This document shows, piece after piece, positions 3,344-18,107 of a stretch of DNA of 39,382 nucleotides. The translations under genes and the position numbers were made by a program. This DNA comes from a virus. Lineage: Duplodnaviria; Heunggongvirae; Uroviricota; Caudoviricetes. The notes under the pieces are model-generated. The model did no database searches. It saw only the letters and a program-made list of their open reading frames with translations, and had not been told where the DNA came from. The first letter of the stretch is position 1; each line of letters opens with the position of its first letter. Location of the stretch: IMG/VR virus record IMGVR_UViG_2923296884_000001, one strand, 5' to 3'.

Positions 3344-3500
3344 CTGCTCCCTCCCTGTGCGGCATGGTCGCATGTGCGTGCGGAGGGGGTTACTGCTTTT
3401 TGTTGTCGCCGTGGCGGGAGAACGGCGCAGGGGTGAGATTACGCGCGTGGTGGGTGATGATTGTTGCTGAATCATTTAACGGATACAAGGGGCTAAAGCT
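3344..3500. promoter_or_regulatory. divergent intergenic region between D and FI; candidate late promoter(s)
   Basis: 157-bp gap between divergent D and FI starts; contains TTGTTGT-N-AGAACGG, a motif also present upstream of P at 22975-23004. Confidence 0.4.
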
Positions 3501-4685: not shown

Positions 4686-5197
4686 TGGCTGTACCAAAAC
4701 ATCTTCGCTTTTTTACGTTGTTTGTGGATGGTGAAAACGAAGTGGGTAAAGTGACATCCGTCACGCCACCCAAACTGACGCGCAAAACCGACAGCTATCG
4801 TGGTGGTGGCATGATGGGGGCGGTAAGTATTGATCTCGGTCTGGACGACTCCGCGCTTGATGCGAGTTTTGTCATGGGGGGAGCTGTTCGTGCGCTGTTC
4901 CTTAAATATGGCGGCACGATTGACGGCACGCTGCTGCGTTTTGCGGGTGAATACTACACCGATGCAGAAAGCGATCTGTATGAAATCGAGATGCGCGGGC
5001 GTGTGACGGAAATTGATATGGGGGAGGCCAAACAGGGCGAAGCCACATCACACACTTACGCTGTCAAAAACACCTACTACAAGCTGAGCGTTAACGATCG
5101 CCCGCTGTGGGAAATCGACCTGTTGAACCACATCTACCGGAAGGACGGCAAGGACATTGTGCCTGACCGCATTCGTTCCGCGCTTGGGCTTGGCTGA
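4685..5197 (+). CDS. FII: tail tube protein
   Basis: 170-aa ORF matching P2 gpFII, in the conserved position after the sheath gene. Confidence 0.93.
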   Translation: MAVPKHLRFFTLFVDGENEVGKVTSVTPPKLTRKTDSYRGGGMMGAVSIDLGLDDSALDASFVMGGAVRALFLKYGGTIDGTLLRFAGEYYTDAESDLYEIEMRGRVTEIDMGEAKQGEATSHTYAVKNTYYKLSVNDRPLWEIDLLNHIYRKDGKDIVPDRIRSALGLG

Positions 5198-5252
5198 TAA
5201 GTAATATGCAGGCGGCGCAGTGCGTCGCCTCTGACTGAAAAGGAGACAACTG

Positions 5253-5627
5253 ATGAAAGATATCGATACTGAAACCCGGAATAACACCGTAGCGGATGAT
5301 GTGACGGCAGGTGAGGATATGGCTGTCGAACGTGGTGTAAAACTTTCCCGGCCAATTGAGCGTGGTGGCGAAAAAATCACATATGTGGAGATCACCGGGG
5401 CTATTGAGCAGGCGGGATCCCTGCGTGGTCTGTCGCTGTCTGATGTGCTGAATCTGAAAGCGGATACCATGTTCACGCTGTTGCCTCGCGTGACCTCGCC
5501 ACGACTGGATGAAGTGATGATTAAAAAAATGTCGTCACGCGATTTTATTCGGTTGTGCGCTGTGGCTGTAAATTTTATGAGCGAGCCAGACTCTGGCGCG
5601 AAGAGCGTGCAGGAGACGGCAGCGTAA
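5253..5627 (+). CDS. E: tail assembly chaperone E
   Basis: 124-aa ORF in the conserved position between tube and tape-measure genes, with an overlapping -1 frame ORF as in P2 E/E'. Confidence 0.85.
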   Translation: MKDIDTETRNNTVADDVTAGEDMAVERGVKLSRPIERGGEKITYVEITGAIEQAGSLRGLSLSDVLNLKADTMFTLLPRVTSPRLDEVMIKKMSSRDFIRLCAVAVNFMSEPDSGAKSVQETAA

Positions 5628-5791
5628 TCACCCTGGTGTGCTTTGAGCACATCGAAGATCTGGTGGCGGATATTGCCGCCATTTTTAACTGGTCGCCCGC
5701 CGAAATCTTCATGATGACGCCCGGCGAAGTGGTTAGCTGGCGTGAGCGGGCGGCACTTCGCAGCGGGAATGCAGATAATGAAGACTCTTGA
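5555..5791 (+). CDS. E': E' extension (-1 frame) of the E+E' frameshift product; true junction lies upstream, about 5525-5555
   Basis: -1 frame ORF overlapping the 3' end of E and the 5' end of T; an A7 run at 5523-5529 sits where the -1 frame opens (stop at 5522-5524 in that frame). Confidence 0.65.
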   Translation: MRCGCKFYERARLWREERAGDGSVITLVCFEHIEDLVADIAAIFNWSPAEIFMMTPGEVVSWRERAALRSGNADNEDS

Positions 5792-8585
5792 CATCCGGGT
5801 CGCTTTCAGCGCCGTTGACAGGCTGACCCGGCCTGCCGAAAACGCCCGCCGCCTGATGGGGCAGTTTGGTGACTCCATCCAGCGAACGCAGGGGGCGATC
5901 AAAAATCTCGAGCGTCAGGCGCGTTCATTTGAGCGCGCCCGTGACGCTGTCAGTAAAGCGGATGCGGGTATCGTGAAAGCACGACGCCAGCTTAACGCCC
6001 TTAATCAGTTACAACGCACGGGTACAGTGCTCAGCGAAAAACAACAAAAGCTGATGCAGCAGTTAAGCACCCGGCTTGAACGCCTGAATGAATCGCGCAC
6101 ACGGGAAATTCAGAAAATGCGGGAACTTGGCGGAGAGCTGAAACGCCACGGCATTTCCCTGACAGGCAGCGATAACACCATCCAGCAGGCCATCAGACGC
6201 ACCGAACAGTACAACAACCAGCTTGAACGCGAACGGCAGGCGCTTGCGCGTGTAACGCGGGCGCGTGAGCGGTATTCGCGCGCGCAGGAAACCGCGGGAA
6301 AACTGAAAACAGGTGGTGCGCTGGCAATTGGTGCTGCAGCGGCTGGCGGCTATGCTGCCGGGCGTTTTTTGCAGCCTGCGATCGGGTTCGGCAAAGAGAT
6401 GTCCCGCGTTCAGGCACTGACGCGAATCGACAAAAACAGCCCGCAGTTTAAGGCGCTGCGTGAGCAGGCGTTAAAACTTGGTTCTGAAACACAGTTTACT
6501 GCGAGTGATGCCGCCAGTGGGCAGAGCTTTCTGGCAATGGCTGGTTTTACTCCGCAGGCCATTCAGGCCGCATTGCCCGGTGTTCTTAATATGGCGCTGG
6601 CAGGTGGCGTCGAACTCGGCGAGACGGCTGATATAGGCTCCAATATCCTCACACAGTTCAACCTGACAGCCGATCAAATGGACCGGGTTGGCGATACGCT
6701 GACAGCAGCATTCACCCGGACCAATACTGATTTACGCGCGCTGGGCGAAACCATGAAGTATACCGGTCCGGTTGCCGCAAAACTTGGTATCAGTCTTGAA
6801 GAAGCGGCGGCCATGGCCGGGATGCTTGCCAATAATGGTCTTCGCGGAAGCGATGCTGGTACGGCCATGCGCGCAAGTCTGTCCCGCCTTGCATCACCGC
6901 CAAAAGCTGCGGCTGATGCACTGAAAGAGCTGGGGGTGTCAGTTGCTGACGCCAGAGGCAAAATGCGCCCGATGGAGGATGTGCTGCTTGATCTCTATAA
7001 GGCGACACAAAAATACGGACAGGTGGACCAGGTTTCCTTCTTCAAGGACATCGCCGGAGAAGAGGCGTTCGTTGGTTTACAGACGCTTGTTGCGGCGGCT
7101 GGTTCAGGAGAGCTGCAAAAACTGACCAGAGAATTGCAGGGGGCAAGGGGAGAGGCCGATCGCGTTGCAAAAGTAATGGCCGATAATCTTGATGGGGACC
7201 TGAAAAATCTCGACAGCGCATGGGAAGGTCTTCGTATTCGCATCAGTGATCTGGTTGACGGTCCGCTGCGTTCTGTCACGCAGTGGCTCACGCGGGTGCT
7301 TGAAAAAATCACCTCGCTGGCGCAGGCCCATCCGGTACTGACGCGCCAGCTACTGATAGCAGGCGGTGCGTTGCTGGCAATGACTGCAACGATTGGCTCG
7401 TTGTCGCTGGTTATTGGGGTGCTTTACGGAAAGCTGGCCACCCTGCGTCTTGGTTTTGACATTCTTACCCGGTCAATGAATGTCGTCCGGGTGTTGCCTG
7501 CGCTGTGGGGAATGCTGACGGGTTCTGTTTCTTTGCTGGGAGGCGCTATCGGGGCGCTGTTCAGTCCGGTTGGATTGATTGCTGCTGCGTTTGTGGCTGC
7601 GGCGGTTCTCATCTGGAAATACTGGGAACCCATTAAGGCGTTTTATGCCGGGGTGTTCAACGGGATTATGGAAAGGCTGACCCCGTTGCGCGAAACCTTT
7701 GAACGGTTTGGTCCTGTTTTTGACGCAATCGGAAGCGGGATCAGCCAGGTGTTTAACTGGTTTAAATCGCTGCTGTCACCGATGGAGTCCAGCAAGGAAA
7801 CGCTGGATAAATGTACCAGTGCTGGCGAGATATTCGGTAACGTTCTTGGTGGCGCGTTACAGCTTGTTCTGACGCCTGCAAAAATGTTGCTGGATACGCT
7901 GGCGTGGATACTTGAAAAACTCGGTGTTCTTCCGGATGAAGCGGAAAGGGCGAGAAAGAAAATCGAAGACGCACAGCGTGCGGCCATTCTTCAGGACAAG
8001 GTTACCTTGCTTCAGGGGGACCTGGCGAAAATCAATCCGCCGAAGCCTGTGGAAAATGGCAATGGCACCGGAGGTGATAACCCCAAAGACAATAAACCGC
8101 TCACAGACAGCAATACCGGGACGCTGCGCAGACTCAGCAAAATTGCTGATAACACAGGTAAGCTGGTTGAGGAGACGAAAAAACGCATTGGCCCCGGCGA
8201 TATTGTCTTTAAAAACCTGCCCCGAGCACTTGCTGTTCGTGGGGAGTGGCAGGAGCGGAAGATTGCGCAGGTCAGTAAGCCTGCCCCCGCAATTAATATC
8301 ACACCCGTGGTCCCGGCTCCGCTGCCTCCGGCGCTGGTCCCTGTTGTTGCGGCCAGCTCCCGCCCGGTGGCGGAGGCCATACGATCTCCAGTGGCATCAG
8401 TTCCTGTAACTTCCCGTAACCGGGAGCCTGTTGCCTCCGGATTTGGTGGTGAAATTCATGTTCATCTGCATAACGTTGTTACGCAGAATCCCCGCGAACT
8501 GGCGAAACTGGTCGGTGAAATGGTCAGGGCAGAAATGGAACGGCGTGCCCGTGCCGGGCGTGGCAGTTTTTACGATAAAGATTGA
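5769..8585 (+). CDS. T: tail tape-measure protein
   Basis: About 940-aa ORF with coiled-coil N-terminal half, Gly/Ala-rich hydrophobic segments and a Pro-rich C-terminus, in the P2 gpT position; start (5742, 5769 or 5778) overlaps E'. Confidence 0.9.
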   Translation: MQIMKTLDIRVAFSAVDRLTRPAENARRLMGQFGDSIQRTQGAIKNLERQARSFERARDAVSKADAGIVKARRQLNALNQLQRTGTVLSEKQQKLMQQLSTRLERLNESRTREIQKMRELGGELKRHGISLTGSDNTIQQAIRRTEQYNNQLERERQALARVTRARERYSRAQETAGKLKTGGALAIGAAAAGGYAAGRFLQPAIGFGKEMSRVQALTRIDKNSPQFKALREQALKLGSETQFTASDAASGQSFLAMAGFTPQAIQAALPGVLNMALAGGVELGETADIGSNILTQFNLTADQMDRVGDTLTAAFTRTNTDLRALGETMKYTGPVAAKLGISLEEAAAMAGMLANNGLRGSDAGTAMRASLSRLASPPKAAADALKELGVSVADARGKMRPMEDVLLDLYKATQKYGQVDQVSFFKDIAGEEAFVGLQTLVAAAGSGELQKLTRELQGARGEADRVAKVMADNLDGDLKNLDSAWEGLRIRISDLVDGPLRSVTQWLTRVLEKITSLAQAHPVLTRQLLIAGGALLAMTATIGSLSLVIGVLYGKLATLRLGFDILTRSMNVVRVLPALWGMLTGSVSLLGGAIGALFSPVGLIAAAFVAAAVLIWKYWEPIKAFYAGVFNGIMERLTPLRETFERFGPVFDAIGSGISQVFNWFKSLLSPMESSKETLDKCTSAGEIFGNVLGGALQLVLTPAKMLLDTLAWILEKLGVLPDEAERARKKIEDAQRAAILQDKVTLLQGDLAKINPPKPVENGNGTGGDNPKDNKPLTDSNTGTLRRLSKIADNTGKLVEETKKRIGPGDIVFKNLPRALAVRGEWQERKIAQVSKPAPAINITPVVPAPLPPALVPVVAASSRPVAEAIRSPVASVPVTSRNREPVASGFGGEIHVHLHNVVTQNPRELAKLVGEMVRAEMERRARAGRGSFYDKD

Positions 8586-8591
8586 GGAGTC

Positions 8592-9086
8592 ATGGCCATG
8601 ATGATGATCTATGGCATGTTTGTTTTTGAGCTGCGCACATTGCCGCATCAGCAGTTACAGCAAAACAAAAGCTGGCGGCATGTGAAAAATGAACGCGTTA
8701 ATCGTTCAGCAAGCTGGCAGTATATCGGCGCAGGTGATGATCGCATCGTGCTTTCCGGCGTGCTTTATCCTGAAATTACAGGTGGCGAAGTGTCGCTTTC
8801 GTTGCTGACCACGCAGGCATATACAGGACGCCCCTGGCCTCTGATTGATGGTGTCGGGCAGATTTACGGCATGTATGTACTGACTGAAACGAATACGACC
8901 CGTTCCGAGTTTGATCGCTACGGTAAGGCGAAAAAGATAGAATTTTCACTGACTCTTGAACGCTGTGATGAGGATTTGCGGGAGCGCCTGCAATCCTCAT
9001 CGTTCAGTGATATGCTGTCCGGCTTCAAAGATAAGGTCACATCATCCCTTAACAGCGCGGCCAGCTCCGTTAAAGGGCTGTTTTGA
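8592..9086 (+). CDS. U: tail protein U
   Basis: 164-aa ORF immediately after T with similarity to P2 gpU (MFVFELRTLPHQ... vs P2 MFVFMRQTLPHQ...). Confidence 0.9.
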   Translation: MAMMMIYGMFVFELRTLPHQQLQQNKSWRHVKNERVNRSASWQYIGAGDDRIVLSGVLYPEITGGEVSLSLLTTQAYTGRPWPLIDGVGQIYGMYVLTETNTTRSEFDRYGKAKKIEFSLTLERCDEDLRERLQSSSFSDMLSGFKDKVTSSLNSAASSVKGLF

Positions 9087-9093
9087 TTAACGC

Positions 9094-9123
9094 AAAACCG
9101 CTAATGGTCAGATTAGCGGTTTT
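9094..9123. terminator. palindromic hairpin between convergent U and invertase genes (bidirectional terminator candidate)
   Basis: AAAACCGCTAAT-ggtcag-ATTAGCGGTTTT perfect 12-bp inverted repeat, A-run on one side and T-run on the other; overlaps the invertase stop codon. Confidence 0.5.
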
Positions 9124-9712
9124 CATTTTCCTGAGTCTGCCTGGTTGTTTCTTCAGCCTGTATATCGCCTACAGGGTGATAACGATAAATCGTCGATATG
9201 CCGATGTCGTAAATGATCGCCAGTTGTTTCCTGTCATGACCGTTTTTAATCAGCCTCGCTATTTGCTCGTGTTGTTCTTTTGTCAACTTCGGGCGACGTC
9301 CGCCAATGCGTCCTTGTGCGCGTGCTGCTGCCAGCCCGGCCAGTGTACGCTCTACAATTAATTCACGTTCCATTTCGGCTAAAGCCCCCATGACGTGAAA
9401 AAAGAAACGCCCCATGGGTGTTGATGTGTCAATGCTGTCCGTCAGACTACGGAAATTAACACCTTTTTCCCGCAATTCCTCAATAAGCGTGATCAGGTGT
9501 TTCATACTTCTGCCCAGTCTGTCCAGCTTCCAGACAACCAGCGTATCTCCTTCTGATAGCGTTCTGAGCAGTTTTTTCAATCCCGGTCTGGTTGATTTCG
9601 TTCCGCTGATTTTATCTTCAAAAATCAGTTCACATCCTGCGCAGTTCAGTGCATTGCGTTGTAAATCCGTGTTCTGGTCGTTTGTTGACACACGAATATA
9701 GCCAATTTGCAT
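9113..9712 (-). CDS. serine-recombinase DNA invertase (Hin/Gin/Cin/Pin family)
   Basis: Translation from the ATG at 9712, MQIGYIRVSTNDQNTDLQRNAL..., carries the catalytic serine (GYIRVSTNDQ) and a C-terminal HTH; lies right next to an inverted-repeat-flanked tail-fibre segment. Confidence 0.93.
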   Translation of the reverse strand: MQIGYIRVSTNDQNTDLQRNALNCAGCELIFEDKISGTKSTRPGLKKLLRTLSEGDTLVVWKLDRLGRSMKHLITLIEELREKGVNFRSLTDSIDTSTPMGRFFFHVMGALAEMERELIVERTLAGLAAARAQGRIGGRRPKLTKEQHEQIARLIKNGHDRKQLAIIYDIGISTIYRYHPVGDIQAEETTRQTQENENR

Positions 9713-9726
9713 AAAAAACATCCTCT

Positions 9727-10245
9727 TTGTTTCGTGAAAAATACAGAGTTGGTATAGGTAGGGATAAAAACGAAAACGTTGGTTTAGGAGAAGGCTCGGC
9801 GCTACCCGTTGGTGTGCCTGTTCCGTGGCCCACTGCCACACCGCCAGCAGGCTGGTTACAGTGCAACGGAGCTACGTTCACCAAAGAACAATATCCTGTT
9901 CTGGCCAGAGTCTACCCGACCCTCCGTCTTCCCGATTTGCGCGGTGAGTTTATCCGTGGATGGGACGGTGGTCGCAAGGTTGATACCGGGCGTACGGTAC
10001 TTTCATTTCAGGAAGGGACTATCGTATCCGGTTTTGATGATAATAATACCGGAGATATCAGTTCGCTCGGCTCTACACAATACGGATTTGGTGACGCTTT
10101 AACCTCTAATCAACTGGGGGTCATAAATGGCAAAAAGTGGATATTTGATGCATCCTCTAAAGGTGCACAAAGATATGACTGGTGGGCTTATGTATCAGCT
10201 CGCCCCCGCAATATCGCATTTAACTATATCGTGAGGGCGGCGTGA
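9727..10245 (+). CDS. alternative tail-fibre C-terminal cassette (Hv'), promoterless in the current orientation
   Basis: Opens inside the left inverted repeat with no plausible start of its own (ORF-track start is a TTG); ends ...RPRNIAFNYIVRAA, matching the conserved P2-type fibre C-terminus. Confidence 0.8.
   Translation: MFREKYRVGIGRDKNENVGLGEGSALPVGVPVPWPTATPPAGWLQCNGATFTKEQYPVLARVYPTLRLPDLRGEFIRGWDGGRKVDTGRTVLSFQEGTIVSGFDDNNTGDISSLGSTQYGFGDALTSNQLGVINGKKWIFDASSKGAQRYDWWAYVSARPRNIAFNYIVRAA
9765..9790. other. gix/hix-like crossover site (left)
   Basis: Reverse complement TTCTCCTAAACCAACGTTTTCGTTTT shares its first 17 nt with the right-hand site; resembles the 26-bp gix architecture with AAACC half-sites. 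Confidence 0.5.
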
Positions 10246-10251
10246 TACCGT

Positions 10252-10866
10252 TCAACTGGCAAGTGCCAGTGGTGCTTCCGGCCAGATGATTTCAGGTGCC
10301 GTGCTGATATCCAGTGCGTTCAGCTCGTCGATATAATCCAGCACGGCGTTCAGTTTTGCCGTTTCTTCTGGTGTCAGACTGCGACCAGCACGCAGTTTGA
10401 GGTTGATAAGATCGACGGACGCCATCGCCTGTTTCACCCGTTGCTGGCGTTGCTGTCTGGCAACCTCCAGTTCTGCGGTTCGCTGCCGTTCAGTATCGGT
10501 TACCCACGCCTCACCGTTCCAGGTATCCCATGGCGTGGCTGGCTGTTTTGTGGTGGTGTCCGCCGGGTAATCACCCGGTTGGGTAATCAGAACGGGGTTA
10601 CCGTTCTCCGTGCTGTATACCGTCTCGCCGCGGTGATCAGGCACATGCTCCCACCCGTTCAGCGTGGCAGTCCGGCAAACCACGTAACCCGAAATTGCCT
10701 CCGGCGGTGCATCGGCGCACGAATGTGCCGGAGTACCCACCCCAAGGGCGAGATACTCCACAGAGGATGAGGTGTATTCCCGGGTTTCCTCGTCATAGTG
10801 ATATACAGTGATATCGCCCGCTACAGTGGCGATACCGTTTTCATCCAGAACTGCAGTGTTACTCAT
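10252..10866 (-). CDS. tail fibre assembly chaperone (Tfa / P2 gpG-like)
   Basis: 204-aa ORF translationally coupled (TAATG) to the upstream fibre C-terminal ORF; variable N-terminal half and conserved C-terminal half typical of Tfa proteins. Confidence 0.85.
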   Translation of the reverse strand: MSNTAVLDENGIATVAGDITVYHYDEETREYTSSSVEYLALGVGTPAHSCADAPPEAISGYVVCRTATLNGWEHVPDHRGETVYSTENGNPVLITQPGDYPADTTTKQPATPWDTWNGEAWVTDTERQRTAELEVARQQRQQRVKQAMASVDLINLKLRAGRSLTPEETAKLNAVLDYIDELNALDISTAPEIIWPEAPLALAS

Positions 10867-11108
10867 TAAACTGCCCTCACAATGTAATTAAGTGCAATGC
10901 TACGGGGTCTGACAGTGATACCCTTCGCATACCCGCTTCTGATAGAGGTCAGAATAGTAGCCTGCATACCATTGTCTGACATTGCTATGACAGGATCGCT
11001 GAATGTTGTCCCGTCCGGCATTTTAAAGCTGCCCTCACGAAGGTCTGTAATGGAATCTTCATTGTTGAATCCCATGCCGACTATCCCGAGGTTCCCGTAG
11101 TGTCCTGG
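10866..11108 (-). pseudogene. distal part of the currently fused fibre C-terminus, in a different frame from H (frameshifted end)
   Basis: This frame is open from 11108 and ends ...RPRSIALNYIVRAV, the conserved fibre terminus, while the H frame stops at 11081; the two frames overlap at 11081-11108. Confidence 0.5.
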
Positions 11109-12688
11109 TTATAATAATCCAGCATTGCTGTTCTTAACAGCGTTGCCCCTTGTGCGGACAGCAACTTACGTCCTGTATCAACTTTGCGCCCGTCGTCCCA
11201 TCCACGGATAAACTCACCGCGTAAATCGGGAAGACGGAGGGTCGGGTAGGCTCTGGCCAGAACAGGATATTGTTCTTTTGTAAAGGCGCGCCCGTCGCAC
11301 TTTAACCAGCCTGCTGGCGGTGTGGCGGTGGGCCACGGAACAGGCACACCAACGGGTAGCGCCGAGCCTTCTCCTAAACCAAGGTAATTGAGGACATCTT
11401 TTATACTGCCCTTAGCGATAATAGCGCGACCAATAGCTGTAAGGGTTGCCAGCGCTGCGCGGTCTGCTCCGGTAAAATAAGGCAACCGATCTGCTGCAGT
11501 GGCAAGTCCTGCCAGAGCAGTGAGCGTGGCATCTGCCGGTTGTTTTCCGTTTGCCAGATCGTATGCAGCCTTGACCGCTTTCGGTGTGGCGGCCAGTATT
11601 TCAGACGTGCTGTTGGTGGCGCTACTGAGTTGAACAAGGCCTTTTCGTGCCGTAGTCGCATCCTGAGCGGTATATTTCCCGTTAGCCAGGTCATATGCAG
11701 CCTTAACCGCTTTCGGTGTTGCGGCCAGCGTTTCAGAGGTGCTGTTGGTGGCGCTACTGAGTTGAACAAGGCCTTTTCGTGCCGTAGTCGCATCCTGAGC
11801 GGTATATTTCCCGTTAGCCAGGTCATATGCAGCCTTAACCGCTTTCGGTGTTGCGGCCAGCGTTTCAGAGGTGCTGTTGGTGGCGCTACTGAGTTGAACA
11901 AGGCCTTTTCGTGCCGTAGTCGCATCCTGAGCGGTATATTTCCCGTTAGCCAGGTCATATGCAGCCTTAACCGCTTTCGGTGTGGCGGCCAGCGTTTCAG
12001 AGGTGCTGTTGGTGGCGCTACTGAGTTGAACAAGGCCTTTTCGTGCCGTAGTCGCATCCTGAGCGGTATATTTCCCGTTAGCCAGGTCATATGCATCCTT
12101 AACCGCTTTCGGTGTTGCGGCCAGCGTTTCAGAGGTGCTGTTGGTGGCGCTGCTAAGTTGAACAAAGCCTTTTGCGGTCAGCGAGGCGTCCGGGTGACGT
12201 CGTGACTGCTCGTGCTCTGATATTTTATCATCCACATATTTGCGGGTTGCCAGAACCACAGACGGGTCGATTTTCAGCGTGATGGCTTCGGTGTTCGTGA
12301 CAACCAGAATCATGCGGATAGTCTGGGTGCGTCCACTGCCTTCCTGCAACTGCGGTTTGTACGTTTCCGGGCAGTTTGCCACCGCAATGAGTACACCTTT
12401 ATCATCATAAAGACCAATCTCACGGATCCAGAATCCTCCCTCGCTTTCAGGGATGATTTGCTCCGCAATAATCTGGCTCTGATTGTTAGGGTCAACACTC
12501 AGAAGATTCAGCGGTGCAATGCGTTTCTGGTTAATCAGTTTTGTTTGTGCAGGGTCTGGTGTTGGTAACACACCATTTGCATCACCAACGGCCATTCGCG
12601 TCAGATTCAGCTTACTGCCGAGCATCGTCGCGTTAGCCAGTCGTGCCGCGCCCTGATTAGTCAGAATGGCGTAGTATTTCACTGTCAT
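11081..12688 (-). CDS. H: tail fibre protein H (constant part plus currently fused variable end)
   Basis: 535-aa ORF with a P2 gpH-like N-terminus, five tandem 44-aa repeats, and a C-terminal region that enters the right inverted repeat. Confidence 0.9.
   Translation of the reverse strand: MTVKYYAILTNQGAARLANATMLGSKLNLTRMAVGDANGVLPTPDPAQTKLINQKRIAPLNLLSVDPNNQSQIIAEQIIPESEGGFWIREIGLYDDKGVLIAVANCPETYKPQLQEGSGRTQTIRMILVVTNTEAITLKIDPSVVLATRKYVDDKISEHEQSRRHPDASLTAKGFVQLSSATNSTSETLAATPKAVKDAYDLANGKYTAQDATTARKGLVQLSSATNSTSETLAATPKAVKAAYDLANGKYTAQDATTARKGLVQLSSATNSTSETLAATPKAVKAAYDLANGKYTAQDATTARKGLVQLSSATNSTSETLAATPKAVKAAYDLANGKYTAQDATTARKGLVQLSSATNSTSEILAATPKAVKAAYDLANGKQPADATLTALAGLATAADRLPYFTGADRAALATLTAIGRAIIAKGSIKDVLNYLGLGEGSALPVGVPVPWPTATPPAGWLKCDGRAFTKEQYPVLARAYPTLRLPDLRGEFIRGWDDGRKVDTGRKLLSAQGATLLRTAMLDYYNQDTTGTSG
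11369..11394. other. gix/hix-like crossover site (right)
   Basis: TTCTCCTAAACCAAGGTAATTGAGGA: imperfect dyad of 12-bp half-sites around a central AA, at the outer edge of the right inverted repeat. Confidence 0.5.
11510..12170 (-). repeat. five tandem copies of a 132-bp (44-aa) coding repeat inside H
   Basis: Near-identical 132-bp units at about 11640, 11772, 11904 and 12036 plus a more diverged flanking copy; encode LVQLSSATNSTSETLAATPKAVKAAYDLANGKYTAQDATTARKG. Confidence 0.85.
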
Positions 12689-13293
12689 GCGTTTACTCTC
12701 AGATTATCAATTAAATGAATGGCCGGGGCAGGGAAATAATCCCCTTCGACAATAATGGACTCCGGGGTGTAGGGATAAACCGTCAGGGCGTCGCCGTAAT
12801 AGCATCCCGTACCAACGAAAATCTTTCCGTTCACACTCAGGCTGATCGCCAGCCCCGTCAGATGGCGACTTACTGGTTTTGCATCCGCAATAAGGCGCTC
12901 AAGTTCCTGATACATTTCATCGGTGATGCCCTGATCAAGTACTCCGACAACAATGCGAAATGTCCCAGGCTCCTCATTGAGTTGCCACCACTCCTTTACT
13001 TCAATCAGGTAGCCGAGAGGCTCCACGGCTCTTCGCAGTGCGCTGATGGTCCCTTTGTGTCGGTGTATCAGCCATGCATCACGAATTACCTGTCGCTTTG
13101 TCTCTTCCGGCCAGTTGCGATCCCAGCGGTCAACGGAAAACGCCCAGGCGAGATAAGGCAGCAGATGCACCGGGCAGGTGTCCGGCGACCACAACGTGTT
13201 GAGGTCTACCGGAATGTCTGTAATGCGTGTTCCGACGGCTTCGGCACAACGCATGAAATTGCTGGCTGATGGTGGTAACAACGAATTACTCAT
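12685..13293 (-). CDS. I: baseplate protein I
   Basis: P2 gpI-like ORF; start taken as the ATG at 13293 (MSNSLL..., SD AAGGTGGA); overlaps the J stop and the H start as in P2. Confidence 0.85.
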   Translation of the reverse strand: MSNSLLPPSASNFMRCAEAVGTRITDIPVDLNTLWSPDTCPVHLLPYLAWAFSVDRWDRNWPEETKRQVIRDAWLIHRHKGTISALRRAVEPLGYLIEVKEWWQLNEEPGTFRIVVGVLDQGITDEMYQELERLIADAKPVSRHLTGLAISLSVNGKIFVGTGCYYGDALTVYPYTPESIIVEGDYFPAPAIHLIDNLRVNA

Positions 13294-14182
13294 TGCGTCC
13301 ACCTTCGCTGATGGTGAATGACTCACAGCGCGCCGCCTGTATGTCGCTGATGGCCATATTCTGTGTGGGTTCGATTATCTCCACGCGTTGCACACCGTGC
13401 ACATGCAGTGCGGCAGCAATGGCGGACAACGCCACGTCCTGACCGATAAGCCCCTGCTCAGCCAGCCACTTCCTGAACGACGATTCAGCCGCCGCCAGAA
13501 TAGGTTCGGATTCCGGGCCGGGGTAAAAGTACAGTTTTGCATTCAGCCGCCATGTCACGATTCTGGCGCTCTGTACAGTAAGGCGGTCGGCCACCGGGCG
13601 GGTATCCTCTGCATTCAGAACGGCGCGAACGGTATTAAGCAACGCCTCCGTTGCTGTGCCGTCGCCTTCAGTGGACAGGATGGAAACCGTCACATTTGCC
13701 GGAGACGGACTGATAGCCCGCGCATCACGCACCAGACCGCTGGCGCTGCGGGCAAAATACTCGTATGCACCTGACGGGCCAGCAACACTCAGGCCATCGT
13801 ACGCCCGCTGCGCCCGCAGTCTCAGCGAGGTGTCACTTTCCATCACTGCGTCGGTGGTATCTGTTGCCGGAGTGATGGTCAGGCGCTTTGTGTTCATATT
13901 GCCCGCGAGGTTGTCCAGGTCTGTCCCGGCGCTGTGGCTTAACATGCAGGCGCGTGCCCCCTCATTGACCCGCTGGCGTAACAGCATTTCACGAAAAGAC
14001 ATGGTTTGAGCGATAACGTTCAGGGGTTCCGATTCCAGCTCCAGCGCGGCGGAGACGGCTTCACGCTGTTCGGCAGGATAGGACGCAATCATCATGGCCT
14101 TTGTGTCAGCCAGAATTGCCTCAAAATCAGGCTTCGCGATGATGGCGGGTTCCGGTAACTGGGAAAGGTCAACAGCAGGCAT
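13286..14182 (-). CDS. J: baseplate wedge protein J
   Basis: 298-aa ORF with P2 gpJ similarity and conserved position. Confidence 0.9.
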   Translation of the reverse strand: MPAVDLSQLPEPAIIAKPDFEAILADTKAMMIASYPAEQREAVSAALELESEPLNVIAQTMSFREMLLRQRVNEGARACMLSHSAGTDLDNLAGNMNTKRLTITPATDTTDAVMESDTSLRLRAQRAYDGLSVAGPSGAYEYFARSASGLVRDARAISPSPANVTVSILSTEGDGTATEALLNTVRAVLNAEDTRPVADRLTVQSARIVTWRLNAKLYFYPGPESEPILAAAESSFRKWLAEQGLIGQDVALSAIAAALHVHGVQRVEIIEPTQNMAISDIQAARCESFTISEGGRNE

Positions 14183-14185
14183 GAT

Positions 14186-14536
14186 TTACTCCCTCAGCGT
14201 GATGGTTAACTCAACATTCTGCATGGTCTGCATGACAGTGCCCGACAGCGTCACCCCGGCGCGGCCTCCTGCCTTCCAGACAACGTCGATGGCGTCCAGG
14301 GCAATGCGGGGTTCCCATCGTGTCAGCGCAATCACGGCAGCACTCATGCATTGCAGACGCGTGGTGTTATTCATGGGTTCGTCAATCAAATCAGGTACAA
14401 GGCTGCCATATTCCCGTCGCATAACCCGGCTGGCCAGCGGGGTGGTCAGGATGTCCCTGACTGACTGTTTCAGGTGCTCCGTATCGTTCAGGTTTCCCGT
14501 CCCGTCCGGATTCATTCCTGTGTAGCGGGTTGTCAC
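14186..14536 (-). CDS. W: baseplate protein W (gp25-like)
   Basis: 116-aa ORF between V and J with P2 gpW similarity. Confidence 0.88.
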   Translation of the reverse strand: MTTRYTGMNPDGTGNLNDTEHLKQSVRDILTTPLASRVMRREYGSLVPDLIDEPMNNTTRLQCMSAAVIALTRWEPRIALDAIDVVWKAGGRAGVTLSGTVMQTMQNVELTITLRE

Positions 14537-15114
14537 TGCGGGCCTCCTGTCGAATCGCTGCCACCTTTAACGCCACCGTGTTTATGCGTATGCACTGTGA
14601 TACCGTTTGAGGTGAAATTGCCGCCGCTGTGCGTGATATTGCCGCTCATCTTTCCCCCTTTTGTGACGTCAAGCGTCTCCGTTCTCAGAAGGTTTGTGCA
14701 TTCCACGACGGGCGTGTCCAGTTTCACGCTGACGGATGCCTGTAAAGTGGCCGTTTTCATGCCGCTGGCGCTCAGTGCGCCTGCGTCCGCGTCGTAGCGG
14801 AACACCGCGCCGTCCGGCGCGCTGATCACGATTTCTTTCAGGCTTTTGCCGGGGGCCGGACTGGCATCACTCCACAGGCTGCCAATTATCATGGCGGTTT
14901 CCGGGTTGCCGCCAATGCAGGCAATTACTACCTGTTCGCCTGGTGATGGCGGCAGCCACACATTGAAGGCTCCCGCGCGCGTGGTGTTCCAGCGCAGCCA
15001 GCCTGTTTCCAGTTCGCCGCTGCGAACGCGCACGCGCCAGGACTTCTCATCAACTTCAGAGATGATCCCGGTGCGGATGATATTGCTCAGCAGTCGCATG
15101 AGTTCTGCGCTCAC
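14533..15114 (-). CDS. V: baseplate spike protein V
   Basis: 193-aa ORF with P2 gpV-like spike features; start is the GTG at 15114 or the ATG at 15099. Confidence 0.88.
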   Translation of the reverse strand: MSAELMRLLSNIIRTGIISEVDEKSWRVRVRSGELETGWLRWNTTRAGAFNVWLPPSPGEQVVIACIGGNPETAMIIGSLWSDASPAPGKSLKEIVISAPDGAVFRYDADAGALSASGMKTATLQASVSVKLDTPVVECTNLLRTETLDVTKGGKMSGNITHSGGNFTSNGITVHTHKHGGVKGGSDSTGGPQ

Positions 15115-15746
15115 CGTACAGCCTCCGCAATCCGGCCCAGCACCGTGTTATAAATCAGGCGCTCATCTGCCTGGCTGATACCCAACAGCTCACGTACCGG
15201 GTAATCGGTGAAAATGCCCGGCGCAACCTGATCGCGCTCACCGAACTGATGAACGCGTGCAATACGTGCGGCCACGCCGCTGTAACCTACCGTCACACCG
15301 GAGGCATCTGCACGGGCTTTCAGGTAGCGGGCGGTGCGCAGTTTTACGAACATGGGGACGCGCTTTGTGCTGTCCTGGTTGATGCGCCGGGTGCGTATTT
15401 CCAGAAAACGGTCGATGTCATCCCGGTAAAACGTGCGGATATTGTTTTTATCCTCATCCCACCCGGTGATGGTTCGCCCGTATTTCCCCGTGTCGTGATG
15501 CCAGTTTTTCAGCGTGCGTGCTTCGTTATTCCAGATAAAGCGAATGCGTTCCTGTATCCGGGTTACGCGGCGTCTGCGTGGTGTCCACGCGGTCCCGTCC
15601 GGCGCTTTCTGTGACCGGATACGCGCCTGCTGGGCGCGGCGTAAATCCTGTGCCAGCTTTCTGGCGATGTTATTGATGGCCTGCTGATTCAGGCTGTCGC
15701 GGATGGCCTCAAAGGTTTCATCCACGCGGGTGAATGCCTTATCCAT
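15111..15746 (-). CDS. S: tail completion / virion morphogenesis protein S-like
   Basis: ORF in the P2 gpS position between R and V; longer (about 211 aa) than P2 gpS. Confidence 0.75.
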   Translation of the reverse strand: MDKAFTRVDETFEAIRDSLNQQAINNIARKLAQDLRRAQQARIRSQKAPDGTAWTPRRRRVTRIQERIRFIWNNEARTLKNWHHDTGKYGRTITGWDEDKNNIRTFYRDDIDRFLEIRTRRINQDSTKRVPMFVKLRTARYLKARADASGVTVGYSGVAARIARVHQFGERDQVAPGIFTDYPVRELLGISQADERLIYNTVLGRIAEAVR

Positions 15747-16206
15747 CGCTTTCACCCCACGTCACATCCTGGAATACATGCGACCAGTCGCCTTCGGAAG
15801 ATGGCAGGCGGGGTTTTGGCTCCGGCAGGTGTTCTGCCTGCGGTGTGCCCTGACTGTTGCGCGTGATGCGAACGCGTTCCCGCAGGGGGAGCGTAAACAG
15901 GAGATCGGCGCTGTCATCGTCATTGATAACGGCGGAGAATTTGATGTCCTGATTACGCTCAGGGTTGAGCAACAACTGTGGCTGATTTTCGGATAACCAC
16001 GCCAGCAGCGGCAGCGTGAGGTCGTCCAGCTCTCCGGCGTAATCCATGACAAACATCACCATCTGATAGCGGTAAACAAACGAGGGCGTTTCCCCGGTCG
16101 TTTCAATGTTGCCGCTCTCCACGAAAATGGTGAATTTCTCGGGATTAGCCTGGCACCACCGACACCCATGAAGCATGGACTCTCGCAGACTGTTTGTCTT
16201 AAACAT
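15739..16206 (-). CDS. R: tail completion protein R
   Basis: 155-aa ORF, same length and position as P2 gpR. Confidence 0.85.
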   Translation of the reverse strand: MFKTNSLRESMLHGCRWCQANPEKFTIFVESGNIETTGETPSFVYRYQMVMFVMDYAGELDDLTLPLLAWLSENQPQLLLNPERNQDIKFSAVINDDDSADLLFTLPLRERVRITRNSQGTPQAEHLPEPKPRLPSSEGDWSHVFQDVTWGESDG

Positions 16207-16229
16207 CTGTTTTGCTCTCCTGCTCTTCC

Positions 16230-18107
16230 TTATGCTGCGGGATTATTGATTTCCAGCACCAGGCTGCCGATATCGACGCCATACGTTGCATTTTTGGTAA
16301 TATCCGTCAGCGTCAGTGCATTCAGCCCCAGTGTCAGACTGTCTTTTATGACCTGGAATGCCGGGCCAACCAGTCCATTCAGTTTCGGAGTAACCGTGGC
16401 ACTGCCGGCGGTGAACACCAGCTCCAGCGTCTGCCAGTCGTTACTGTAATTCCCGAACTCGCCCAACTTTGTGTTTCCGGCTTTCTTGTGATGCATCAGA
16501 TTCAGTTTGCCGTCTGTGGTCTGGGTGAAGAACGACATCAGGAACGGGTTACCAGTCCCGGTCATCGCCACGACGTCAGGTAACGCTACATCGGTATACA
16601 GATAAATTCCCAGACCGAACTGGTTGTTGGTCAGTGCGCCTGACAGTCGAAACTTACAGCTCAGTCTGCCACCCCGTGTCAGCAGGGAGACTGCGTCATC
16701 CACCGGGCGCGTCAGGGACCAGGCTTTATTGCTCTGCTTGGCGATCTTAAATACACCATCTGACAACTGAATTCCGCCATTCTTAATGCTCCAGCCCTGC
16801 GCAGCAGCATCTCCGGCTGTCGGCAACAGGGAGATTGTGCGTACGGATGCATCTTCAGACGGCCCCGATGGCGTGTCGCCGCCGGGCGAGGGTTTGATTT
16901 CCGGTGCCTTACCACTGATGAAGGCTGAGGTGCGCCCGGCTGCGTTCAGAATAGCGGTTGCCATACGATCCGGAATAATGCTCCTGCGCGCCCATGAACT
17001 GAAATGTGTCGGGCGGTTTGATGATACCCAATTACCATTACTACGGGATTGCGCGCCGTAATAACCTGCATCAGCAATATCCGGGTCTTCTGCCGGTAAG
17101 TTGGTGGGCGTGTTGTTGCCGTTACCGTCGGTCATGAACGGCACAAAGAAAACGTTGTCGCTCTCCCTGTTTTTGTACGCGCCGTAGACGGAGTCATACT
17201 GTGTGCCGTATGTGTTTTTCCAGTAATACGTCGTGTCGCCACAAATCCACGGTACAACTGCAGCACTGCCGCCATGGCACTGCGCGTTAAATCCGGAAAG
17301 GTCAGTACGGAACTGCTTCAGCATGGCCGTGAACAGGTCCGGTTGCTGTGCGTAGGTGGCAGCGCTCATGTCAAATTCGCCCTGCATCCAGCACACCGCC
17401 AGCAACACATTTTTCGGGTTCTTCTGTAATGCCGCTTTGGTGCGTGCGATCAGGTCCTGATATAACGGTTTACCCACACCCCAGCGTGCCGAATCCTGGC
17501 TGGCCCCCGTGTCCGCACTGAATGTCCCCTCCGCGCCCTGGGTGAATGCCGAACCACCACGACAGCATGGTACCAGCAGGATCCCCGCGTTATTCGGGAT
17601 ATACGGAAGCAGTTTTTTGGCAATATGTAAGCCCTGGCCGACACAGCCGTACTGCCCTTTGCTCAGGTCTGCCTTCGGATGATTCAGTGCGCTCATATCC
17701 TGAACATCATGCAGGCAGTGGTCTGCCGGAATGATGTCGTTAAATGCGCATGCTTTACCACCGGGAGTCACTGTGTTGCGACGGGCCAGTTGCTTAATGC
17801 GTGGGTGGGGCGCATCGTAAGAATCCGGCAGCGGCATTCCCTCACCATATGACATGGCATTGGATTGACCAGCAAGTACCACCACGTAATACCACTCCGG
17901 CACGCTGCCGTGCTGGGGGGAATCAGGTGAGATGTCTGTAGTGCCATCGGCCACCATTGCCTGCATTAGATACCACGGGGTGCCGGGTTCGTAGGCAACC
18001 CGCGTCTCCCCCTGAAGATGCCACCCTTTCGCAAGATGTTCATTCACCTTTTGAGTCAGTTCAGCCTGTGTCATGGCTGTAATCAGTGCAAAGTTCTTAC
18101 TGGTCAT
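16230..18107 (-). CDS. SASA-domain carbohydrate esterase (sialate O-acetylesterase-like, NanS-p-like), 625 aa
   Basis: Contains VVVLAGQSNAMSYGEG (GQSN motif) and WMQGEFD, typical of the SASA esterase family, plus a ~300-aa C-terminal domain; start overlaps the o-spanin stop (ATGA). Confidence 0.75.
   Translation of the reverse strand: MTSKNFALITAMTQAELTQKVNEHLAKGWHLQGETRVAYEPGTPWYLMQAMVADGTTDISPDSPQHGSVPEWYYVVVLAGQSNAMSYGEGMPLPDSYDAPHPRIKQLARRNTVTPGGKACAFNDIIPADHCLHDVQDMSALNHPKADLSKGQYGCVGQGLHIAKKLLPYIPNNAGILLVPCCRGGSAFTQGAEGTFSADTGASQDSARWGVGKPLYQDLIARTKAALQKNPKNVLLAVCWMQGEFDMSAATYAQQPDLFTAMLKQFRTDLSGFNAQCHGGSAAVVPWICGDTTYYWKNTYGTQYDSVYGAYKNRESDNVFFVPFMTDGNGNNTPTNLPAEDPDIADAGYYGAQSRSNGNWVSSNRPTHFSSWARRSIIPDRMATAILNAAGRTSAFISGKAPEIKPSPGGDTPSGPSEDASVRTISLLPTAGDAAAQGWSIKNGGIQLSDGVFKIAKQSNKAWSLTRPVDDAVSLLTRGGRLSCKFRLSGALTNNQFGLGIYLYTDVALPDVVAMTGTGNPFLMSFFTQTTDGKLNLMHHKKAGNTKLGEFGNYSNDWQTLELVFTAGSATVTPKLNGLVGPAFQVIKDSLTLGLNALTLTDITKNATYGVDIGSLVLEINNPAA

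What the first reader, a model, noticed from the sequence alone, without database searches (positions are those of the whole stretch)
11510..12170. Five-copy 132-bp in-frame tandem repeat in tail-fibre gene H
Nearly identical 132-bp units encode a 44-aa module repeated five times in the fibre shaft. Such arrays expand and contract by slipped recombination and change fibre length. They also generate long spurious ORFs on other frames and can collapse in assemblies.
Basis: seen in the sequence. Interest (0 to 1): 0.4.

Follow-up and report, generated by a model that had tools for sequence, protein, structure and literature searches.

The report
Five-module repeat in prophage tail fibre
A prophage tail-fibre gene in E. 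coli carries five head-to-tail copies of a well-known 44-amino-acid fibre module; the repeat is real and recently amplified, and relatives carry two to five copies, so it is an ordinary feature of these phages.

Summary
Tandem Repeats Finder gives one array in the window: 11543-12173, period 132, 4.8 copies, 96% matches, no indels. In protein terms it is exactly five 44-aa units (11531-12190, minus strand, residues 167-386 of ORF 11081-12688). Each unit matches Pfam PF03406, the phage tail fibre repeat. The gene is the P2 gene H homologue of a P88-like (Xuanwuvirus) prophage inserted next to serS in E. coli.

The three inner units are 99-100% identical. Each combines the head of the last unit with the tail of the first, which is the signature of unequal recombination from a two-unit ancestor such as P2 gpH.

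Relatives carry 2 (P2), 3 (P88), 4 or 5 copies. Near-identical prophages differ by exactly one inner unit. Six complete genomes carry the same five-copy array, so it is not an assembly artefact.

The array lies in the constant shaft.

An effect on fibre length is inferred, not shown. Verdict: real, correctly interpreted, already known in kind, low interest.

The parts
11531..12190 (-). Tandem array of five 132-bp (44-aa) PF03406 tail-fibre modules, H residues 167-386. Units: U1 12190-12059, U2 12058-11927, U3 11926-11795, U4 11794-11663, U5 11662-11531.
   Evidence: TRF; the repeat finder; unit dissection and pairwise identities; Pfam PF03406 with 5 stretches.
11081..12688 (-). Tail-fibre gene H as it reads in the window: 535 aa, truncated. 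The intact allele is 607 aa.
   Evidence: ORF list; translation; Pfam PF12571 + 5x PF03406 + Collar; 100% identical 607-aa database proteins P0016 and P0017; 1-nt gap against L001.
12239..12688 (-). N-terminal domain, residues 1-150 (PF12571, phage tail-collar fibre N-terminal). Taken to be the baseplate-attachment end.
   Evidence: Pfam 1.1e-61 over profile positions 1-150 of 150. It is 98% identical at the DNA level to phage 500465-2, whose fibre has no repeats. The attachment role is inferred from knowledge of P2 and Mu fibres (PMC11915804 for Mu).
11378..11530 (-). Distal end of the constant part, residues 387-437 (…QPADATLTALAGLATAAD…NYLG), between the array and the crossover site.
   Evidence: Translation; LGLGEG found at residue 436.
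11369..11394 (.). H-proximal 26-bp recombination site TTCTCCTAAACCAAGGTAATTGAGGA.
   Evidence: Unique in the window, 0 expected by chance. It lies at the outer end of the 229-nt inverted repeat. The inversion breakpoint in U15A maps here.
9767..9792 (.). Invertase-proximal recombination site in inverted orientation (reverse complement TTCTCCTAAACCAACGTTTTCGTTTT). It shares the inner half-site and the AA core with the other site.
   Evidence: Sequence read; half-site search; breakpoint in U15A.
11157..11385 (.). Arm of the 229-nt inverted repeat (90% complementary to 9776-10004). It encodes the Collar domain of the currently expressed tip.
   Evidence: the repeat finder; Pfam Collar at residues 447-494.
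9776..10004 (.). Second arm of the inverted repeat. It encodes the Collar domain of the silent tip.
   Evidence: the repeat finder; Pfam Collar in ORF 9727-10245.
10866..11075 (-). 69-aa ORF that is the displaced 3' end of H. It is separated from H by a 1-nt deletion near 11088 (GGG here, GGGG in relatives).
   Evidence: Alignment to L001; sequence context; GGGG in U15A; inserting one G restores 607 aa.
10252..10866 (-). Tail-fibre assembly (chaperone) gene, 204 aa, inside the invertible segment.
   Evidence: Pfam Caudo_TAP 5.9e-28; PHROG 105.
9727..10245 (+). Silent alternative C-terminal tip cassette (Collar domain … RPRNIAFNYIVRAA). It becomes fused to H residues 1-437 after inversion.
   Evidence: Pfam Collar; PHROG tail collar fibre. 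The predicted 590-aa fusion is identical to database protein P0032.
9113..9712 (-). Serine DNA invertase, 199 aa (Gin/Cin/Pin/Hin type).
   Evidence: Pfam Resolvase 4.5e-51 + HTH_7; PHROG 125 DNA invertase 8e-99; annotated recombinase of 600 nt in relatives.
12685..13326 (-). gpI homologue (baseplate/tail protein I) immediately upstream, overlapping the H start codon.
   Evidence: Pfam Tail_P2_I 4.2e-53.

Best explanation
The array is five tandem copies of the 44-aa 'phage tail fibre repeat' (Pfam PF03406). It lies in the proximal, constant shaft of the tail-fibre protein (P2 gpH homologue) of a P88-like prophage of E. coli.

It arose from an ancestral pair of modules, as in P2 gpH, by unequal homologous recombination or replication slippage between the shared core of the two modules. 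That event makes a hybrid unit with the head of module 2 and the tail of module 1. The hybrid unit was then amplified to three copies recently. The same process adds or removes whole 132-bp units without changing the reading frame, so the number is polymorphic among related prophages.

Functionally (inferred), each module is a self-contained segment of the trimeric shaft. The shaft runs between the baseplate-attachment domain (residues 1-150) and the receptor-binding tip, which here is exchanged by a DNA invertase. On this reading, copy number sets the length or reach of the fibre rather than its specificity.

Shown: the repeat, its in-frame modular nature, its family, its hybrid-unit structure, its recency, its polymorphism, and its position upstream of the crossover site. 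Inferred: the recombination mechanism and the effect on fibre length.
For: Repeat and phase.

Family: five PF03406 stretches, 331 bits against a cut-off of 22.

Gene identity and context: PF12571 N-terminus, gpI upstream, assembly gene downstream. P88-like genome layout.

Hybrid units: U1 differs from the inner units only in nt 1-39 plus two point differences. U5 differs from them only in nt 57-132. U3 and U4 are identical. In P2, module 1 ends …AAYDLANGKYTAQ and module 2 begins DATTARKGLVQL…, and these are exactly the parts joined in the inner units.

Recency: core DNA identity between units is 98-100% for the inner units here. It is 80% between the two P2 units, which have the same amino acids in that core, and 79-94% in P88 and strain 746.

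Polymorphism:
- P2 has 2 copies, P88 has 3, and P2 variant OU784750 has 4.
- In the same prophage lineage at 98-99% flank identity, FDAARGOS_1077 has 5, while MS8345 and AZ184 have 4 and lack exactly one inner unit.
- Alignment spans in complete E. coli genomes correspond to 2, 3 and 5 copies.
- An HMM count over 120 protein clusters gives 3 copies in 68, 4 in 33 and 5 in 13.
- Fibres with the same N-terminal domain in 71 other species carry 0 copies (43), 1 (24), 2 (3) or 3 (1).
- Phage 500465-2 has a 98% identical N-terminus and no module. The module is therefore dispensable and additive.

Not an artefact: six complete genomes carry the identical-length array at 99-100% identity.

Position: the array ends 50 residues before the crossover site. 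The same five-module constant part is found fused to two different tips, of 607 aa and 590 aa.
Against: - No structure exists for the module in a trimer. A 2021 survey (PMC8078820) listed PF03406 among repeat families without a known structure.
- My AlphaFold2 monomer model was unusable (mean pLDDT 40.7). 'Length spacer' therefore rests on position and modularity only.
- No phenotype is linked to copy number in anything I found.
- The 4-copy and 5-copy alleles sit in prophages that differ by 1-2% elsewhere. Gain and loss need not be fast, and I cannot say which state is derived.
- RecA-dependent unequal crossover and replication slippage cannot be told apart from sequence.
- In this window H is frameshifted. 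In the present orientation the fibre may be non-functional, and the copy number could then be drifting neutrally.
Confidence: 0.85

Rival explanations
1. Assembly artefact: the true copy number in the source genome differs, because a 660-nt repeat with near-identical units has been mis-assembled.
For: Units 2-4 are 99-100% identical over 396 nt, longer than short reads. The window also has a homopolymer-type 1-nt deletion at about 11088 that relatives lack, so some sequence error is conceivable.
Against: The same five-unit array, with no gaps, is present at 100% identity in U15A, U12A and S103EC. It is present at 99.0-99.7% in FDAARGOS_1077, strain 1450 and MS10860, which are independent complete genomes. 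Thirteen 90%-identity protein clusters have five modules.
Confidence: 0.04
2. The repeat matters mainly at the DNA level. The conserved module would act as a homology 'linker' at which unrelated phages exchange fibre segments. Copy number would then be a by-product of such exchanges rather than a tuned length.
For: The gene is a mosaic with junctions at the array. The N-terminal 465 nt are 98% identical to phage 500465-2, which has no repeat, and similarity stops at YVDDK. The repeat region is about 85% identical to P2 and Yersinia phages. The same module occurs in Mu S, in P1-like plasmid fibres and in lambda Stf-type proteins (PMC3368898). Exchange of fibre segments between unrelated phages is the thesis of Sandmeier 1994, as cited in PMC8986868.
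Against: Exchange between phages does not explain three identical inner units, or alleles that differ by exactly one inner unit within one lineage. The amino-acid sequence of the module is held constant while synonymous sites diverge: the P2 units are 80% identical in DNA with identical core protein. That shows selection on the protein. This rival is compatible with the main explanation rather than exclusive of it.
Confidence: 0.2
3. Neutral drift in a decaying prophage: the extra units have no consequence, and the fibre gene is on its way to being a pseudogene.
For: H is truncated by a frameshift in this window. Related prophages show decay: strain 1434 has a 1-nt insertion inside the array and an IS66 in a cassette, and FDAARGOS_1077 has lost V, W and J.
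Against: All five units are in frame with no stop, and differences between units are few and mostly synonymous. U15A carries the identical array in an intact 590-aa gene, within a prophage region whose listed genes from the tail genes to the invertase are intact. The frameshift lies in the invertible tip, not in the array, and inversion bypasses it.
Confidence: 0.15
4. The modules are themselves binding sites, for example for surface polysaccharide, so more copies would give higher avidity rather than greater length.
For: Nothing found here points to it directly.
Against: The module lies proximal to the switchable Collar-domain tip. That tip is homologous to the receptor-binding regions of T4 gp37 and gp12, and specificity maps to C-terminal regions in P88 (PMC5285337). 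The module is almost invariant across phages with different hosts and tips, which is unlike a specificity determinant.
Confidence: 0.04

Closest known systems
Bacteriophage P2 gpH (NC_001895, NP_046775, 669 aa)
   Same: Same gene position after I. Same N-terminal domain family. Same 44-aa module with identical core residues (…KG[FL][TV]QLSSATNSTSETLAATPKAVK…), and the module begins at the same point after YVDDKI.EHEQSRRHPD.
   Different: P2 has two modules, not five. Their core DNA is only 80% identical, against 98-100% for the inner units here. The P2 C-terminal half is unrelated, with no Collar domain, and no invertase gene is listed between H/G and the tail genes in the P2 region fetched.
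Escherichia phage P88 tail fibre gp39 (Xuanwuvirus, NC_026014)
   Same: Same genome layout: invertase after the fibre cassettes, and the FI-U block facing the other way. Same module in tandem.
   Different: P88 has three modules, 79-94% identical in core DNA. It has a P2-like long C-terminal half and two assembly genes.
E. coli tail fibre proteins P0016/P0017 (607 aa, e.g. FDAARGOS_1077) and P0032 (590 aa, U15A, S103EC)
   Same: The five-module constant part matches: 100% of the window's 535 residues by BLASTP identity for P0016/P0017. P0032 equals the predicted flipped fusion residue for residue.
   Different: Those genes are intact. The window copy lacks one G at about 11088 and stops at 535 aa.
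Phage Mu S / P1 S fibres with G or C invertible segments (Gin/Cin)
   Same: A constant N-terminal part joined by site-specific inversion to alternative C-terminal tips with assembly genes. Mu S carries one PF03406 module at residues 108-151 (PMC11915804 for the G(+)/G(-) system).
   Different: Mu has a different N-terminal domain and one module rather than five. Here there is one assembly gene that flips with the segment.
Tandem duplications in other phage fibre genes: T4 gp37 His-box duplications (Tétart et al. 1996, from my own knowledge) and Enterococcus phage EfV12-phi1 tail-fibre duplications (PMC6365445, title and abstract only)
   Same: In-frame tandem duplication within a fibre gene arising by recombination and segregating in populations.
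   Different: In the T4 case (my own recollection) the duplicated segment lies in the distal adhesin and changes host range. I did not read where the EfV12-phi1 duplications lie. Here the array is in the proximal constant shaft and no host-range effect is known.

Membership tests
Pfam PF03406 Phage_fiber_2 (phage tail fibre repeat) | Match to the family HMM above its gathering score | tested here: met
   331.4 bits against a cut-off of 22, E 2.6e-101, five separate stretches, best stretch covering profile positions 1-41 of 42.
Pfam PF03406 Phage_fiber_2 (phage tail fibre repeat) | Occurs as repeated units of about 40 aa inside tail-fibre proteins | tested here: met
   Five units at exact 44-aa spacing in a protein with fibre N-terminal and Collar domains. 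Homologues carry 3-5 units at 44-aa spacing.
P2 gpH-type tail fibre (Peduoviridae) | N-terminal tail-collar fibre domain PF12571 | tested here: met
   E 1.1e-61, profile positions 1-150 of 150.
P2 gpH-type tail fibre (Peduoviridae) | Position in the late operon after the V-W-J-I baseplate genes, followed by a fibre assembly gene | tested here: met
   Tail_P2_I immediately upstream and Caudo_TAP downstream. V, W, J and I are annotated in the collinear relatives MS8345 and U15A.
Xuanwuvirus (P88-like) prophage | Genus-typical layout: invertase next to gpU, and divergent D and FI genes | tested here: met
   The D/FI junction is 97-98.7% identical and contiguous in P88, P884B11, 520873 and others. 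The U/invertase junction is 85-87% identical.
Xuanwuvirus (P88-like) prophage | Whole-genome nucleotide identity at the genus threshold | not tested
   Only junctions and the fibre region were compared.
Din-family invertible fibre-tip switch (Gin/Cin/Pin/Min type) | Serine invertase with Resolvase catalytic domain and C-terminal HTH | tested here: met
   Resolvase 4.5e-51 + HTH_7 2e-12; PHROG 125 DNA invertase 8e-99.
Din-family invertible fibre-tip switch (Gin/Cin/Pin/Min type) | Two 26-bp sites in inverted orientation bracketing alternative tip cassettes | tested here: met
   Sites at 11369-11394 and 9767-9792 share TTCTCCTAAACC and an AA core. They lie at the outer ends of a 229-nt inverted repeat. 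A cassette with a Collar domain lies on the opposite strand.
Din-family invertible fibre-tip switch (Gin/Cin/Pin/Min type) | Both orientations occur | tested here: met
   Window 9776-11382 is inverted in U15A at 99.4% identity with collinear flanks. The predicted flipped protein is identical to P0032.
Din-family invertible fibre-tip switch (Gin/Cin/Pin/Min type) | Fis-dependent recombinational enhancer within the invertase gene | not tested
   Not searched for. It needs a biochemical test.
Phase-variable contingency repeat (on/off by frame change) | Change of unit number shifts the reading frame or promoter spacing | tested here: not met
   The unit is 132 nt = 44 codons. Alleles with 2-5 units all stay in frame. 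It is not filed under this family.

The most novel reading that the evidence does not exclude
Module number could be an adaptive 'length dial'. On this reading the recent amplification of three identical units in this P88-like lineage, found mostly in human E. coli isolates including urinary ones, was selected so that the switchable tips reach their receptor through a thicker O-antigen or capsule layer. Unequal recombination would then give the phage population standing variation in fibre length, alongside the invertase-driven variation in tip specificity.
Probability: 0.12. Interest if true: 0.4.

Novelty: already known. Interest (0 to 1): 0.14.

Why it matters
It matters little for discovery. 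The module is a curated Pfam family, the five-copy protein is already in public databases as 'tail fiber protein', and repeated motifs in P2, P1, Mu and lambda fibre genes were described in the 1990s.

Its practical value is for annotation and assembly:
- The array generates two long false ORFs.
- It can be mis-assembled from short reads.
- Its unit count is a convenient marker that separates otherwise near-identical prophages.

The one open point is modest. Nobody appears to have shown what a PF03406 module looks like in a trimer, or whether module number changes fibre length or adsorption. This locus, with natural alleles of 2-5 modules, would be a clean system for that test.

Tried and rejected
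1. AlphaFold2 on the 535-aa protein with a 19-sequence alignment gave mean pLDDT 40.7 and pTM 0.21. That is too poor to interpret, so I ran no fold search. A monomer model of a trimeric fibre was always a long shot.

2. A PDB sequence search found only the Collar region (T4 gp37 2xgf, short fibre 9cuy) and a single module in the Mu S entries 5yvq, 9ki1 and 8ju3. The Mu cryo-EM paper models only 'the N-terminus' of gp49 and does not describe the module (PMC11915804). No structural answer came from this.

3. The literature on PF03406/Phage_fiber_2 gave little. [quoted passage not shown] PMC8078820 lists it among repeat families without a structure.

4. I first took the plus-strand FI-U block (3501-9086) for an anomalous inversion, perhaps made by the invertase. 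I rejected this: the same junctions occur in isolated P88-like phages.

5. I checked whether the repeat carries Chi sites. There are none, in the array or anywhere in the window. Chance expectation for the window is only about 1.2, so this means nothing.

6. A phase-variation (frame-switch) reading is rejected because the unit is 44 codons.

7. The two overlapping ORFs were scanned against Pfam. Only sub-threshold chance hits came back.

8. Sandmeier 1992 (PMC206102) is not held in the library. Three paper searches failed on term format.
Full report
**The observation**

Tandem Repeats Finder reports exactly one array in the 39,382-nt window. It runs 11543-12173 with period 132, 4.8 copies, 96% matches, no indels and score 1164. 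The repeat finder shows copies at exact 132-nt spacing.

The array lies inside ORF 11081..12688 on the minus strand (535 aa). Phased on the protein, it is five complete 44-aa units, residues 167-386:
- U1 12190-12059
- U2 12058-11927
- U3 11926-11795
- U4 11794-11663
- U5 11662-11531

Neither has a Pfam match above its threshold.

**What the units are**

Pfam finds five stretches of PF03406 (Phage_fiber_2, 'phage tail fibre repeat') at 331 bits against a cut-off of 22. It also finds the N-terminal tail-collar fibre domain PF12571 (residues 1-150) and a Collar domain (residues 447-494).

The gene overlaps a Tail_P2_I gene upstream and is followed by a Caudo_TAP assembly gene. 'Gene H' is therefore the right P2 name.

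The prophage is not P2 itself. The divergent D/FI junction and the gpU/invertase junction are shared at 97-98.7% and 85-87% identity with Escherichia phage P88 and other Xuanwuvirus-type phages. The host is E. coli, and the window runs from serS (1-1293) to the phage integrase.

**Anatomy of the array**

U3 and U4 are identical, and U2 differs from them by one base. U1 differs from the inner units only in its first 39 nt, plus two point differences. U5 differs only in its last 76 nt.

Each inner unit is therefore the head of the last unit joined to the tail of the first. P2 gpH has just two modules. Module 1 ends …AAYDLANGKYTAQ and module 2 begins DATTARKGLVQL…. An unequal exchange within the shared core of such a pair produces exactly the hybrid unit seen here, and further rounds multiply it.

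Measured over the shared core (nt 27-93 of the unit), DNA identity between units is as follows:
- Inner units here: 98-100%.
- The two P2 units: 80%, although their core amino acids are identical.
- P88 and E. coli strain 746: 79-94%.

The module protein is thus under purifying selection, and the array in this lineage was amplified recently.

**Copy number in relatives**

| Source | Modules |
|---|---|
| Canonical P2 | 2 |
| P88 | 3 |
| P2 variant OU784750 | 4 |
| E. coli 746 | 3 |
| FDAARGOS_1077 (same lineage, 99.7-99.8% identical across H) | 5 |
| MS8345 and AZ184 (same lineage, about 98-99%) | 4, lacking exactly one inner unit |
| Strain 1434 | 4, with a 1-nt insertion that breaks the frame |

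An HMM built from the units gives these counts:
- 120 closest protein clusters: 3 modules in 68, 4 in 33, 5 in 13. P1-like plasmid fibres have 9 in 5 clusters and 11 in 1.
- 71 complete fibre genes from other enterobacterial species with the same N-terminal domain: 0 modules in 43, 1 in 24, 2 in 3, 3 in 1.

Phage 500465-2 has a 98% identical N-terminal domain and no module at all. In complete E. coli genomes, alignment spans correspond to 2, 3 and 5 copies. The module is additive and dispensable, and five is at the upper end for P2-type fibres.

**Not an artefact**

The identical-length array aligns without gaps at 100% identity in U15A, U12A and S103EC. It aligns at 99.0-99.7% in FDAARGOS_1077, strain 1450 and MS10860. 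I cannot check the window's own reads.

**Where the array sits in the protein**

A 229-nt inverted repeat (9776-10004 and 11157-11385, 90% complementary) brackets a 1.15-kb segment. At its outer ends are two 26-bp sites in inverted orientation, 11369-11394 and 9767-9792. They share TTCTCCTAAACC and an AA core.

A 199-aa serine invertase lies at 9113-9712. A silent cassette with its own Collar domain lies on the plus strand at 9727-10245.

Joining H residues 1-437 to that cassette at the site gives a 590-aa protein. That protein is identical, residue for residue, to database protein P0032 from U15A and S103EC. In U15A, window 9776-11382 is present inverted at 99.4% identity with collinear flanks. 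Other relatives show further cassette arrangements.

The five modules therefore belong to the constant shaft, and they end 50 residues before the crossover point. The same five-module shaft carries at least two alternative tips.

Relative to FDAARGOS_1077 and U15A, the window lacks one G in a GGGG run at about 11088. H therefore stops at 535 aa instead of 607. The 69-aa ORF 10866-11075 is its displaced end, and restoring the G gives 607 aa.

The defect lies in the invertible tip, not in the array, and the flipped orientation bypasses it. Whether it is a mutation or a homopolymer sequencing error cannot be decided here.

**How it works**

Shown:
- An in-frame array of a curated fibre module.
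- A hybrid-unit structure.
- Recent amplification.
- Gain or loss of whole units between close relatives.
- A location between the attachment domain and the switchable tip.

Inferred:
- The units change number by unequal homologous recombination or replication slippage.
- Each unit adds a fixed segment to the trimeric shaft, so copy number changes reach rather than specificity.

The second inference has no structural support. A PDB search finds the module only as a single copy in the Mu S entries, and the Mu cryo-EM paper does not describe it (PMC11915804). PMC3368898 states that little is known about the domain. PMC8078820 lists it among repeat families without a structure. My AlphaFold2 monomer model was unusable at pLDDT 40.7.

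**Rivals**

- Assembly error is very unlikely.
- A DNA-level role as a homology linker for exchanging fibre segments fits the mosaic junctions at the array. It does not explain identical inner units, and it is compatible with the main reading.
- Neutral drift in a decaying prophage is possible for this copy. However, the identical array sits in an intact gene in U15A.
- A binding role for the modules is unsupported. Specificity maps to C-terminal regions in P88 (PMC5285337), and the module is almost invariant across phages with different tips.

**Comparison with what is known, and verdict**

The module is Pfam PF03406. The five-copy protein is already deposited and annotated. Repeated motifs and invertible tips in P2, P1, Mu and p15B fibre genes were described by Haggård-Ljungquist et al. 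1992 and Sandmeier et al. 1992 and 1994. I cite these from my own knowledge; the Sandmeier references are also listed in PMC9594776 and PMC8986868.

It is an already known kind of feature and of low interest. The only open point is the untested effect of module number on fibre length or adsorption.

Noticed in passing
window ~11088 (H), with remnant ORF 10866-11075 (-): There is a 1-nt deletion in a G run: GGG here, GGGG in FDAARGOS_1077 and U15A. It truncates H to 535 aa instead of 607. It could be a real mutation or a homopolymer sequencing error.
   Followed up: yes
window 9113-11394: This is an invertase-driven switch of the fibre tip. It has two inverted 26-bp sites, a 229-nt inverted repeat, one silent Collar cassette and a serine invertase. 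The near-identical prophage in E. coli U15A has the segment flipped, and the predicted 590-aa flipped protein is identical to a database protein. The single assembly gene (10252-10866) flips with the segment, so it is antisense to H in the other state.
   Followed up: yes
window 2234-9086: The tail genes FI-FII-E-T-U are on the plus strand, while D and H-V are on the minus strand. This is opposite to the P2 order. It turned out to be the normal layout of P88-like (Xuanwuvirus) phages, not a rearrangement.
   Followed up: yes
window 16230-18107 (-): A 625-aa ORF carries DUF1737, a SASA sialate O-acetylesterase domain and DUF6645, so it resembles NanS-p. It is inserted between the lysis genes and the tail genes and is absent from phage P88 at that position. 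It has no PADLOC defence hit. It is probably a cargo ('moron') gene.
   Followed up: partly
window 28715-29674 (-) and 33616-34446 (-): A ParM-type actin-like segregation protein and an SPFH/Band 7 protein lie in the early region of the prophage. A plasmid-partition partner is annotated next to ParM in FDAARGOS_1077. This is unusual cargo for a P2-like phage.
   Followed up: no
L010 4001-5713 (E. coli KUN2017-0933); proteins P0022, P0036-P0039, P0110: Some alleles contain a 56-aa variant of the module with an inserted …APVSHTHPWSQITGVPA… segment. P1-like plasmid fibres have 9-11 modules with 44-aa and 56-aa spacings, strictly alternating in most of them.
   Followed up: partly
L002 6001-7693 and 8590-11003 (E. 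coli strain 1434): In this relative a 1-nt insertion inside the array (one 133-nt spacing) makes H a pseudogene. An IS66-family element also sits in a tip cassette. These are examples of decay in the same prophage lineage.
   Followed up: partly
L001 12759-13396 versus window 13303-17477: FDAARGOS_1077 lacks about 4.2 kb present in the window (the V, W, J, tail completion and most of the esterase genes). That copy of the prophage is therefore defective, although its H gene is intact.
   Followed up: partly
whole window: There is no Chi sequence (GCTGGTGG) on either strand in 39 kb. Chance expectation is only about 1.2, so this is not significant on its own, although it is below what I recall of the E. 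coli chromosomal density (my own knowledge, not checked).
   Followed up: partly
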